Below are positions 5,548 to 7,931 of a stretch of 64,000 bases of DNA, one piece after another. The notes beneath the pieces are model-generated. The model saw only the letters and a program-made list of their open reading frames with translations, had not been told where the DNA came from and did no database searches. Origin of the DNA: an uncultured virus (IMG/VR IMGVR_UViG_2846005711_000006) (Duplodnaviria; Heunggongvirae; Uroviricota; Caudoviricetes); IMG/VR virus record IMGVR_UViG_2846005711_000006; one strand, written 5' to 3'. The position numbers and the translations under genes were made by a program. Positions within the stretch are counted from its first letter, which is position 1. Every line of letters starts with the position of its first letter.

Positions 5548-6874
5548 ATGGCAAAAGTAAAAAATAAGTTGGAAGTAATGAACCCTAATGCGGCAGGAAT
5601 AGATATCTGTACATTATGTATGTGTTCCAGAAGGAAGAGATGAGCAACATATCCAAAAGTTTGGTTGTTTTACAGTGGATCTGCATAACTTAGCAAAATG
5701 GTTGAAGAAGTGTGAAATTAAAACGGTAGCTATGGAATCAACGGGAGTATATTGGATTCCTTTATTTCAAATACTTGAATCATATGGATTTGAAGTAAAA
5801 TTAGTAAACGCGCGGCATATTAAAAATGTACCTGGTAGAAAATCTGATGTTCAAGATTGCCAGTGGTTGCAACAGTTACATAGCTATGGACTGCTCCAAG
5901 GATCATTTAGACCAGATGATCAAATTTGCGTACTGCGTGGCTACGTCAGACAACGTAATAATCTAATCAGAAGCGCAAGTACACACACTCAACGCATGCA
6001 AAAGGCATTAATTCAGATGAACATTCAGTTACATAAGGCAATTAGTGATATTAACGGTGTAACAGGTATTAGGATTATTGAAGCGATAATTGAAGGTGAA
6101 AGAGATCCTGAAAAATTAGCTGAATTAAGGGATGGACGAATAAGAAATGATAAATCTACTATTGTAAAGGCATTAACCGGTGACTACAGAGAGGAACACT
6201 TGTTTACACTTAAGCAAGAATATGAAGCATATACTTTTTTCCAGGAACAAATAAAGGAATGTGATAGAAGCGTTGAAAGCTACTATAAAACATTTGAAAC
6301 AAAATCTGATGAGAGCAAATCAACAAGTAAAGCACAAGGCAAGCAAAAAAATGATCCAAACTTTAATTTGTATGAAGAATTATACCGGGTTATCGGGATA
6401 GATTTTACTAGAGTTCCAGGATTCAGTGTACTAAGTATACAGACCATAATCTCAGAGACTGGTATCAACCATAACAAATGGCCAACATTTTCGTCTTGGT
6501 TGGGGCTGAGTCCTGGTAATAAAATCACTGGAGAGAAAGTGTTTAGCACGAAAACTTGTAAAGTCGTAAATCGTGCTGCAAATGCCTTACGGCTTGCTGC
6601 ACAATGTGTATCAAAAAGTAATACTGCTCTTGGTTCACAATGCAGAAAGTGGAAAAAACGACTGGGAGCTCCAAAAGCGATCACTGCTATGGCAAGGAAA
6701 TTAGCATGTATCTTTTATAATATGCTAAAGTATGGACAAGAGTATGTCGAAAAAGGAATTGATTCTTACGAAAAACTTTATCAAAACAGGGTTATGAAAA
6801 ATCTGAGTAAAAAAGCTTCTGAATTTGGCTATATCCTGGTAAAAAAAGATGAGTTAGTTCAAGGAGTTTCTTAG
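5548..6874 (+). pseudogene. IS110 transposase (DEDD), frameshifted after the GID motif
   Basis: ATG 5548 MAKVK...NAAGIDI out of frame with 5675-6874 (VAMESTGVYW, KSDVQDCQWL, ARKLA). Confidence 0.9.
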
Positions 6875-7931
6875 GAGAAAGGATCAGTTAATTGAAGGAG
6901 TTTATTAGGAGGAAGAGAAAGTTGGGGAAGTGTGTCGTCGGCTAAACACTATGTCTATTATAACACGAACAGGAAAAAAGTGCTGGGATAGAAGTGTGAT
7001 TTGGGGTATGTTAAAAAATCCTGCTTACAAAGGACAAGCAGCTTTTGGTAAAACAAAAGTAGGTACAACATATAAGACCACAAAAACATTCTTGTGAACA
7101 ACCGAAAGATAATTACTCTACCTATTCTGTTGAAAAAGCAAATTGGATTTATGTTGAAGTGCCAAATATAGTGGACGAGGATGTATTTGATATAGTTCAA
7201 GAACAACTAGCTGAAAATAGAAAAATAGCCAGGACAAGAGAAAGAGGAGCAAAACATTCACTACAAGTATGTAAGCGTTGTCGTTATGCATATTACGGAA
7301 GTCCTGTAAGAAATAAGCGAGGAGAAAAAATTGATCATTATGCTTATTATCATTGTATAGGTAGAGATTCTTACCGTTTTGGTGGTAATAAAATTTGTGA
7401 TAATAAACACATTCGTACAGATGCATTAGAAACAGCCGTGTGGGAAGAGGTTAAGCATTTATTGAAAAATCCAAATAGGGTTTTAGAAGAATACAGGCGT
7501 AGACTTTCAGAGCTTAAAAAATCATCATGGGATCAAAAAAGCGATTTACTAGAGAAACAAGAAAATAAATTAAAACGTGGTATTGCTAGACTTATTGATA
7601 GTTATGCTCAATAATCAAGAAGAATTTGAACCACGAATTAAAGCAATGAAACAAAGTTTAAAAACAATTGAAGAGGAGAAGAAAAGGATATTCGATCAAA
7701 AGAAATTAAAACAGGAATTAACTTTGGTTGTAACCAATTTAGAAGACTTTTCTTCCAATATTACATCAAACCTTGATAACGCAGGCTGGCTAACTAAACG
7801 TGATATTATTAGAACGTTAGTCAAGAGAATTGAAATTAACCTTGAGGACGTAAATGTGGTATTTCGTGTAAAAGAGCTACCAAACTCTCCTGGAAATAAT
7901 CGAGAAGAAAAGAAAAATTTGCAACATTGTT

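What the first reader, a model, noticed from the sequence alone, without database searches (positions are those of the whole stretch)
6848..6911. IS110 copy A has two tandem right ends, suggesting it targets other IS110 elements
Seen: GATGAGTTAGTTCAAGGAGTTTCTTAGGAG is followed by AAAG and the diverged GATCAGTTAATTGAAGGAGTTTATTAGGAG; only the second end joins the recombinase target. Placing the guide TTGGTTAG before the extra 34 bp gives TTG GTT AGA AAG GAT CAG TTA ATT GAA GGA GTT TAT TAG (LVRKDQLIEGVY*), aligning with the transposase end LVKKDELVQGVS*. Inference: the guide is programmed against the 3' end of a sister IS110; after inserting there the element excised using the sister's right end and carried 34 bp along.
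Basis: inference. Interest (0 to 1): 0.72.

Follow-up and report, generated by a model that had tools for sequence, protein, structure and literature searches.

The report
IS110 element that captured a sister's end
A bridge-RNA-type insertion sequence once landed inside the tail of a related insertion sequence, then moved on using that relative's end signal, so it now carries 34 extra bases and two tandem right ends; this is a neat natural variant of a behaviour already shown for another IS110 element.

Summary
Window 6848-6877 and 6882-6911 are two right-end copies, 26 of 30 identical, 34 bp apart.

The element is an IS110-family insertion sequence (Pfam) inserted in a phage-WO-like serine recombinase pseudogene. 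Four uninterrupted copies of that gene in the nearest genome, G001, read ...GTGGGTAG|GAAGAG.... So exactly 1638 bp, the IS plus the 34-bp extension, went in as one unit at an AG core.

The extension is the last 34 bp of a roughly 73%-identical sister IS110, "family C". It matches C's uninterrupted 3' end at 32 of 34 positions, against 29 of 34 for the element's own end.

G001 also holds the nested locus. There the element sits inside a family-C copy, and the 34 bp completes C's reading frame as ...GYVLV|RKDQLIEGVY*.

G001 has 3 long and 4 short copies. The sister's last seven bases plus core (TTAGGAG) match the element's donor guide, which explains use of the outer end.

The proposed target guide TTGGTTAG is supported by covariation across five families. 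"Programmed against sister IS110s" is not needed: such sites occur about once per 1.6 kb by chance.

The closest precedent is ISPpu9 modular transposition. Interest is moderate.

The parts
4838..5271 (+). 5' part of the interrupted large serine recombinase pseudogene (the target), ending ...VFLWV
   Evidence: ORF list. The uninterrupted G001 copies L031-L034 continue straight into 6912 onward. Its closest phage-collection relatives are Wolbachia phage WO recombinases at 43-51% identity.
5272..5273 (+). Left copy of the AG core dinucleotide. One of the two AGs (5272-5273 or 6910-6911) belongs to the target.
   Evidence: The empty site GGGTAG|GAAGAG compared with the filled site. The joint has 2 letters that fit either side.
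5274..6877 (+). IS110-family element 'IS-A' proper, 1604 bp, with no terminal inverted repeats
   Evidence: Seven copies at 99% identity in G001 share these limits. Pfam finds DEDD_Tnp_IS110 and Transposase_20. The left end matches the reverse complement of the right end at only 10-11 of 30 positions.
5351..5530 (+). Left-end non-coding region, the putative bridge RNA gene. A TATAAT lies at 5342-5347 just upstream.
   Evidence: Alignment of nine related left ends shows conserved blocks around two variable guide words. Rfam has no match. The secondary structure is only weakly supported.
5405..5412 (+). Left target guide (LTG) TTGGTTAG, including the AG core
   Evidence: The same position reads TATGCAAG in family B, TTCGTAAG in E, TCGTTTAG in F and TAGGTTAG in D. 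Each matches its own left flanks best.
5468..5475 (+). Left donor guide (LDG) TTTAGGAG. Its last 7 nt equal the last 7 nt of both right ends.
   Evidence: Family D has ATTAGAAG here and a right end ending TTAGAAG. Families A and B have TTAGGAG in both places.
5548..6874 (+). Recombinase gene, broken in this copy. An 8-bp deletion at 5603/5604 removes the GIDIGS motif. An open frame of 399 aa remains at 5675-6874.
   Evidence: Alignment with the G001 copies and six-frame translation. ORF list.
6848..6877 (+). The element's own (inner) right end, ...GGAGTTTCTTAGG-AG. It also encodes the C-terminus DELVQGVS*.
   Evidence: The short copies L004-L007 end here and their flanks diverge after GGAG.
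6878..6911 (+). 34-bp extension, which is the last 34 bp (and right end) of a family-C sister IS110, ending ...TTTATTAGG-AG
   Evidence: 32 of 34 identical to the uninterrupted family-C end in L020. 100% identical in the long copies L001-L003. In L002 it completes the sister's reading frame.
6912..7960 (+). 3' part of the interrupted serine recombinase pseudogene. It has further frame breaks of its own.
   Evidence: ORFs 6930-7097, 7159-7614 and 7577-7960. 98% identical to four G001 copies.

Best explanation
IS-A is a bridge-RNA-type IS110 element with an AG core.

Shown: its target guide UUGGUUAG directs it to yTGGyT-AG sites. One insertion landed, in the same orientation, in the 3' end of the recombinase gene of a family-C sister IS110, 34 bp upstream of that sister's right end, at the site CTGGTA-AG-AAAGG.

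Shown: the sister's right end has the same terminal TTAGG-AG as IS-A's own. That is what the donor guide UUUAGGAG reads, so the nested element has two usable right ends.

Inferred: recombination between the IS-A left end and the outer, sister's right end gave a 1638-bp mobile unit, probably through a circular copy.

Shown: this unit later inserted precisely at new AG sites, namely the window's serine recombinase gene and loci L001 and L003 in G001. The nested donor locus is still present in G001, which fits copy-out rather than cut-out.

The 34 bp has no evident function of its own. It is a scar that marks the history.

The window copy is now dead because its recombinase is frameshifted.
For: 1. 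The insert is exactly IS plus 34 bp between GGGT-AG and GAAGAG, as shown by four empty sites in G001 and by empty-form contigs.

2. The extension matches the family-C 3' end at 32 of 34 positions. The figures for the other ends are 29 (own), 26 (B), 25 (D) and 29 (E).

3. At the nested locus L002 the left flank is a family-C fragment, 97% identical to L020, ending ...EFGYVLV. The 34 bp continues it as RKDQLIEGVY*. L020 reads GYVLIRKGELIEGVY* without interruption.

4. Three long and four short copies lie in G001 at different loci. The flanks of all four long copies diverge right after the outer GGAG.

5. The guide assignments are supported. The LTG word covaries with the left flanks in families A (8 sites), B (10), E (9 distinct), F (5 distinct) and D (1). 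Mean matches to the cognate flanks are 4.0-5.4 of 6 non-core positions, against 0.5-4.0 for non-cognate flanks (data). The LDG covaries with the right end, GGAG versus GAAG in D.

6. Published precedent and mechanism:
- ISPpu9 uses an AG core and alternative right-end boxes B and B', forming circles with or without the downstream module (PMC12288879; abstract, introduction and discussion read).
- IS621 excision needs only the donor arms (preprint 10.64898/2026.08.31.748434; abstract and section 7 read).
- Copy-out preserves the donor copy (preprint 10.1101/2025.10.25.684509; abstract only).
- The LTG has the sense of the top strand of the left target plus core (PMC11208160; passages read).
Against: - No circle or junction molecule was observed. 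Alternative-end excision is inferred from the products only.
- No copy seen has an intact recombinase gene. All 7 G001 copies share a 2-bp deletion after GIDFTR, and the window copy has an 8-bp deletion. The moves must therefore predate these lesions or have been driven in trans.
- The right target guide and right donor guide could not be located. The RNAalifold structure has only 3 of 40 pairs with compensatory change, and Rfam finds nothing. The bridge RNA model is thus only half verified.
- No full-length family-C element was found, only 5'-truncated fragments.
- Position 6180 is G in the window, L001 and L002 but A in the long copy L003 and in all short copies. The long copies are therefore not a clean single lineage; conversion between forms or gene conversion must have happened.
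- The window's own assembly is not held, so its nested locus could not be checked.
Confidence: 0.85

Rival explanations
1. Dedicated IS-on-IS targeting. On this view the target guide of IS-A evolved to home into the conserved 3' coding end of sister IS110 elements. Insertion would disable the sister and take over its right end.
For: - 2 of 7 IS-A copies in G001 abut fragments of other IS110 families on their left: L002 in family C, and L007 in a fragment 82% identical to C.
- The uninterrupted family-C site TTGATTAG fits the guide perfectly if G-T wobble is allowed.
- IS-A's own homologous site reads CTGGTAAA, with AA in place of the AG core, so the element does not match itself.
- In another family (F) the guide TCGTTTAG exactly matches the donor-loop coding DNA CCTCGTTTAG of sister elements, and one such nested copy exists (L098).
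Against: - 6 of the 8 IS-A sites are not in IS110 DNA. Three share TTCTGGCTAG, which looks like the preferred site.
- The L002 site has a true mismatch to the guide.
- Wobble-perfect 8-mers occur about 1.06 times per 1.6 kb per strand in this window, and sites with one mismatch or fewer occur 0.48 times. One hit inside a sister is expected by chance.
- In L007 only the left flank is IS110-like, so that locus may be a rearrangement.
- Insertions into dead IS copies are also simply tolerated.
Confidence: 0.1
2. Local tandem duplication of the element's own right end, by slippage or unequal exchange, followed by divergence.
For: The two units are adjacent, in the same orientation and 84% alike.
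Against: - The second unit is closer to family C (32 of 34) than to the first unit (29 of 34).
- It is 100% identical in four otherwise near-identical copies, so there was no time for 15% divergence.
- The nested locus L002 and the uninterrupted L020 show that the 34 bp is contiguous family-C sequence.
Confidence: 0.02
3. The long copies arose by homologous recombination or gene conversion from the nested locus rather than by transposition with the outer end.
For: - Gene conversion among IS copies is plausible in this genome. All copies within a lineage share the same frameshift.
- The position 6180 polymorphism does not follow the long/short split.
Against: - A conversion tract would need homology beyond the 34 bp, and the flanks of L001, L003 and the window are unrelated to the L002 flank.
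- The outer boundary falls exactly at the sister's recombination site.
- The window insert replaces nothing at the empty site.
Confidence: 0.03

Closest known systems
ISPpu9 / MITEPpu9 of Pseudomonas putida KT2440 (IS110 group; PMC12288879)
   Same: - AG core dinucleotide at both junctions.
- Two alternative right-end boxes (B and B') differing by a few bases.
- Copies with and without the downstream module at different loci.
- The composite moves as one unit, and circles from different end pairs were shown experimentally.
- A native promoter lies upstream of the structured 5' region, and there is an antisense promoter near the start of tnp (here a consensus match only).
   Different: - There the extra module is a MITE-like unit carrying an sRNA gene, with its own left box A', and it can also move alone. 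Here the module is only 34 bp and has no left-end box.
- No solo copies of the 34 bp exist: the 34-mer is found only in the 3 long copies and in sister C among 60 genomes.
- Its origin can be traced to the 3' end of a sister IS into which the element inserted.
- No experiments were done here.
IS621 and the bridge RNA mechanism (PMC11208160, PMC11208158, PMC13626964)
   Same: - DEDD recombinase with a left-end non-coding RNA.
- An LTG with the sense of the top strand of left target plus core, and an LDG with the sense of the right end plus core.
- Core-based insertion with no target duplication.
   Different: - The core is AG rather than CT.
- The guide is 8 nt with frequent wobble or mismatch.
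- The right-hand guides were not identified.
- No circle-junction promoter is evident.
Half-match (donor-arm-only) excision of IS621 (preprint 10.64898/2026.08.31.748434) and copy-out of CazIS110-1 (preprint 10.1101/2025.10.25.684509)
   Same: These explain why any downstream sequence that mimics the donor arm can serve as a right end, and why the nested donor locus persists.
   Different: Those are in vitro or E. coli results on other elements. Here there is only genomic natural history.
IS1111-group elements that target other mobile elements, such as IS4321/IS5075 in the inverted repeats of Tn21-type transposons, and one-ended or read-through mobilisation by ISEcp1/IS91
   Same: Insertion of one mobile element into a defined site of another, and capture of adjacent DNA by use of a surrogate end.
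   Different: Different subgroups or families and different chemistry. Here the captured DNA is only the sister's end itself.

Membership tests
IS110 family, IS110 subgroup (bridge-RNA elements) | Recombinase with an N-terminal DEDD (RuvC-like) domain and a C-terminal Transposase_20 domain | tested here: met
   PF01548 at E 4.9e-17 and PF02371 at E 2.5e-05, both above the curated cut-offs. The window copy lacks the first ~45 residues through an 8-bp deletion, while the G001 copies keep GIDIGS.
IS110 family, IS110 subgroup (bridge-RNA elements) | No terminal inverted repeats, and a long non-coding region upstream of the recombinase gene | tested here: met
   The left end matches the reverse complement of either right end at 10-11 of 30 positions. 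There are 274 nt between the left end (5274) and the ATG at 5548.
IS110 family, IS110 subgroup (bridge-RNA elements) | Insertion at a core dinucleotide shared by donor and target, without target-site duplication | tested here: met
   The empty site GGGTAG|GAAGAG compared with the filled site AG...AG.
IS110 family, IS110 subgroup (bridge-RNA elements) | Left target guide and left donor guide in the non-coding RNA that match the left target plus core and the right end plus core | tested here: met
   Covariation across families A, B, D, E and F.
IS110 family, IS110 subgroup (bridge-RNA elements) | Right target guide and right donor guide on the 3' sides of two internal loops, within a conserved two-loop fold | tested here: inconclusive
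   The right flanks show only a weak A-R-A preference. No complementary word was found. RNAalifold gives 40 pairs, of which 3 have compensatory change. There is no Rfam family match.
IS110 family, IS110 subgroup (bridge-RNA elements) | Circular intermediate joining the right and left ends | not testable with these tools
   Only contigs were laid.
ISPpu9-type modular transposition | Two alternative right ends in tandem, with both long and short forms at independent loci | tested here: met
   3 long and 4 short copies in G001, plus 1 long copy in the window.
ISPpu9-type modular transposition | The downstream module is itself bounded by a left-end-like box and occurs alone (MITE) | tested here: not met
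   The 34 bp holds no left-end motif. At up to 3 mismatches the 34-mer occurs in 1 of 60 genomes of the genus, only in the 3 long copies and in the sister-C end. Tandem ends occur in 1 of 60 genomes.

The most novel reading that the evidence does not exclude
In this genus the IS110 families share one donor 'plug': right end TTAG(G/A)-AG and left end C(A/G)TC(A/G)(A/G)AC. Their bridge RNAs could therefore cross-read each other's ends. On this reading, any same-orientation insertion upstream of a sister's right end creates a new mobile composite. That would be a general, RNA-guided route to cargo capture and to IS-versus-IS competition.

Some guides may actually be tuned to sister elements. The family-F guide TCGTTTAG equals the donor-loop coding DNA of sisters. 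The IS-A guide fits the conserved ...GYVL(I/V)RK codons of family C, but not IS-A's own ...LVKK codons.

The surviving nested donor beside its daughter copies would then be natural evidence for copy-out transposition.
Probability: 0.25. Interest if true: 0.6.

Novelty: new variant of a known kind. Interest (0 to 1): 0.42.

Why it matters
It gives a traceable natural example of how a bridge-RNA element can change its own boundaries. A surrogate end only needs the seven bases plus core that the donor guide reads.

This bears on three questions:
- how IS110 elements could pick up cargo;
- off-target "half-match" recombination in bridge-recombinase editing;
- the copy-out versus cut-out debate, since here the donor locus persists.

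It also provides eight or more natural guide/target sets with an AG core from an AT-rich endosymbiont. These show tolerance of wobble and single mismatches in the left target guide.

It is not a new kind of system. ISPpu9 already showed alternative right ends experimentally.

Tried and rejected
- **Rfam, E up to 10, on 5200-7000:** only two chance-level matches, and no bridge RNA family.
- **Single-sequence fold of 5340-5549:** z-score -2.0, and it pairs part of the guide, so it is not informative.
- **RNAalifold on nine left ends:** weak covariation. I could not place the right target or right donor guides. Sense and antisense comparisons of the variable hairpin loop with the right flanks of families B and E gave inconsistent offsets (reasoning).
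- **Exact scan of genome contigs for the own right end:** 0 hits.
- **Megablast of the whole element against the phage collection:** no match.
- **Order-level search for a full-length family-C element:** 301 genomes searched, only 2 candidates scored per genome. It returned only the two G001 fragments and relatives at 70-76% identity.
- **The search of earlier findings:** three look-ups gave nothing bearing on this element.
- **Contig layouts:**
  - The short contigs across the inner end/extension boundary and the extension/flank boundary have fewer than 31 letters on one side, so I do not count them as bridging.
  - Depths were not used as copy numbers.
- **Circle-junction promoter:** none evident by eye across either right end joined to the left end, and the scan lists none on the + strand at the ends.
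- **Local duplication and gene-conversion explanations:** rejected, see the rival explanations.

Full report
**What is there**

Window 5274-6877 is a 1604-bp IS110-family element, which I call IS-A. Its 399-aa open frame (5675-6874) hits DEDD_Tnp_IS110 and Transposase_20 above Pfam's cut-offs. It has no terminal inverted repeats (10-11 of 30 matches) and a 274-nt non-coding left end.

Directly after its own right end (...GGAGTTTCTTAGGAG, ending at 6877) come 34 further bases (6878-6911). These end in a second, slightly different right end...GGAGTTTATTAGGAG. TRF calls a 34-bp period with 2.1 copies.

**The whole 1638 bp moved as one unit**

The element interrupts a large serine recombinase gene that is itself a pseudogene. 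The nearest held genome, G001, has four uninterrupted copies of this gene. They read ...TTTTTGTGGGTAG|GAAGAGAAAGTTGGGG (L031-L034). In the window, GGGT is followed by AG-CATCGA..., and ...TTATTAGG-AG is followed by GAAGAG.

The insert is therefore IS-A plus the 34 bp, with a shared AG core and no target duplication. Only the outer end touches the target. Contigs of public runs contain the same empty form: a 2314-nt contig in X17, and one short-sided contig each in X1 and X15 that skips exactly 1638 bases.

**Where the 34 bp comes from**

The window's own assembly is not held. G001 carries seven IS-A copies at 99% identity:
- three have the identical 34-bp extension (L001, L002, L003);
- four have none (L004-L007).

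In L002 the left flank of IS-A is the 3' part of another IS110 recombinase gene, "family C", about 73% identical to IS-A. It ends ...EFGYVLV at ...GGTTATGTTCTGGTA-AG. After IS-A, the 34 bp continues that frame as (R)KDQLIEGVY* and is followed by unrelated DNA.

A second family-C fragment, L020, is 97% identical to the L002 fragment. It is uninterrupted and reads ...GGTTATGTCTTGATTAG AAAGGGTGAGTTAATTGAAGGAGTTTATTAGGAG, then flank.

The extension matches this end at 32 of 34 positions. It matches IS-A's own end at 29, family B at 26, family D at 25 and family E at 29.

In all four long copies the flanks diverge immediately after the outer GGAG, which is exactly the sister's element boundary. Among 60 genomes of the genus, the 34-mer (up to 3 mismatches) and tandem right ends occur only in G001. 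IS-A itself, at 97% identity or more, also occurs only there.

**The guides**

I aligned the left ends of IS-A, of the window's second IS110 (family B, 25879-27466, minus strand) and of relatives from G001, G014, G057, G029, G050, G049 and G040. The alignment shows conserved blocks around two variable 8-nt words.

The first word follows GTGCCCG:

| Family | Word | Left flanks seen |
|---|---|---|
| A | TTGGTTAG (window 5405-5412) | CTGGCTAG x3, GTGGGTAG, CTGGTAAG, GTGATTAG, ATAGTTAG, ATGGTAAG |
| B | TATGCAAG | TATGCAAG x5, GATGCAAG x4, GTTGCAAG x1 |
| E | TTCGTAAG | TTnGTAAG-like, 9 distinct flanks from 11 copies (two duplicates dropped) |
| F | TCGTTTAG | 5 distinct flanks from 6 copies |
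| D | TAGGTTAG | AAGGTTAG |

Each word resembles the last eight bases of its own left flanks, core included. Cognate guide-flank pairs match at 4.0-5.4 of 6 non-core positions, or 5.0-5.4 with wobble. Non-cognate pairs match at 0.5-4.0, or up to 4.4 with wobble. This is the relation Durrant et al. describe for the left target guide, which has the same sense as the top strand of left target plus core (PMC11208160, passages read).

The second word follows CCTCG. It reads TTTAGGAG in A (5468-5475), GTTAGGAG in B and ATTAGAAG in D. It tracks the right end, TTAGGAG versus TTAGAAG in D, as a left donor guide should.

I could not locate the right-hand guides. The consensus fold is weakly supported and Rfam has no family for it. 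The bridge RNA model is therefore half verified.

**Mechanism**

IS-A's donor guide matches the last seven bases plus core of both its own end and the family-C end. The two ends differ only at the ninth base from the end. Once IS-A sat 34 bp upstream of the sister's end, in the same orientation, either end could pair with the left end. Use of the outer one gives the 1638-bp unit seen at L001, L003 and the window. That last step is inferred from products, not observed.

It agrees with experiments on other elements:
- ISPpu9 has an AG core and forms circles from alternative right-end boxes, which explains its copies with and without a downstream module (PMC12288879; abstract, introduction and discussion read).
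- IS621 excision needs only the donor arms (preprint 10.64898/2026.08.31.748434).
- Copy-out leaves the donor in place (preprint 10.1101/2025.10.25.684509; abstract only). That fits the survival of the nested locus L002 beside its daughters.

**What does not fit cleanly**

No copy has an intact recombinase gene. The window copy lacks 8 bp at 5603/5604, which removes GIDIGS. All seven G001 copies lack 2 bp after GIDFTR. Contigs from four runs show neither an insertion at 5603 nor a deletion at 6413, so the 8-bp lesion seems shared by the copies in the window's lineage. The moves either predate these lesions or were driven in trans. Shared lesions suggest gene conversion, which has been proposed for dead IS copies in Wolbachia (a title seen in the reference list of PMC3205602).

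Position 6180 separates the window, L001 and L002 (G) from L003 and the short copies (A). Long and short forms have therefore exchanged sequence or interconverted.

**Is the guide aimed at sister elements?**

I think not, or at least this need not be so. Six of eight sites are outside IS110 DNA. Three share TTCTGGCTAG. The L002 site has a real mismatch.

8-mers that fit the guide with wobble occur 85 times in the 128 kb of both window strands, about one per 1.6 kb per strand.

Some points keep a minority case alive:
- 2 of 7 G001 copies abut IS110 fragments (L002; and L007, whose fragment is 82% identical to C and lies on the left side only).
- IS-A's own homologous site has AA in place of the AG core.
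- In family F the guide TCGTTTAG equals the CCTCGTTTAG of sister bridge RNA genes, with one nested copy in G029 (L098).

**Verdict**

The origin-and-carry-over inference is supported. The "programmed against sisters" inference is not needed.

This is a new variant of a known behaviour, alternative right ends in IS110 elements. It is of moderate interest mainly as natural evidence for donor-arm-only end choice and for donor retention.

The genus is probably Wolbachia, judged only from the phage WO-like recombinase hits and the genome sizes.

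Noticed in passing
L098 (G029:C11:42700-45000), L102 (G056), L105 (G018): A family-F IS110 has the target guide TCGTTTAG. In G029 it sits inside a sister's bridge RNA gene exactly at CCTCGTTT-AG, the coding DNA of the donor-binding loop, and the sister's gene resumes (AAGATTGTATAA...CCAAGCTGAAG) after F's right end. The same right-end|AAGATTGT junction occurs in G056 and G018. The complete left junction was found in only 1 of 60 genomes.
   Followed up: partly
window 5603/5604 and 6413-6414; G001 loci L001-L007: Each lineage has its own lesion shared by all IS-A copies seen: an 8-bp deletion in the window (and apparently in the contigs of four runs), and a 2-bp deletion in all seven G001 copies. 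This suggests gene conversion or spread of a dead master copy in trans.
   Followed up: partly
window 25879-27466 (-): A second IS110 (family B, 75% identical to IS-A). Its guide word TATGCAAG equals its left flank exactly. Nine further copies in G014 sit at (T/G)(A/T)TGCA-AG sites.
   Followed up: yes
window 2571-4542 (-) and 7836-9729 (+): The recombinase pseudogene is flanked by an inverted duplication. Identical ORFs of 106 aa and 139 aa, and near-identical ORFs of 361 and 344 aa, appear on opposite strands on either side. Their families were not checked.
   Followed up: no
window 5554-5527 (-): A strong sigma-70-like match (TTGCCA, 16 nt, TATAAT; 11 of 12) points antisense across the start of the recombinase gene. 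It recalls the Asr9 antisense RNA of ISPpu9. The region as a whole has no more promoter-like sites than shuffles do.
   Followed up: no
L009-L016 (G001): Eight family-D IS110 copies share identical flanks for at least 80 bp on both sides. Family D therefore lies inside a larger repeated unit, or its true ends lie further out.
   Followed up: no
L007 (G001:C1:256179-260780): An IS-A short copy has a fragment of a further IS110 family (82% identical to C) on its left. On its right is unrelated DNA that looks like the end of a tRNA gene. This is probably a rearranged locus.
   Followed up: partly
window 4838-7960: Apart from the IS insertion, the serine recombinase gene is split into at least four frames (4838-5317, 6930-7097, 7159-7614, 7577-7960), so it was or became a pseudogene.
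   Followed up: no
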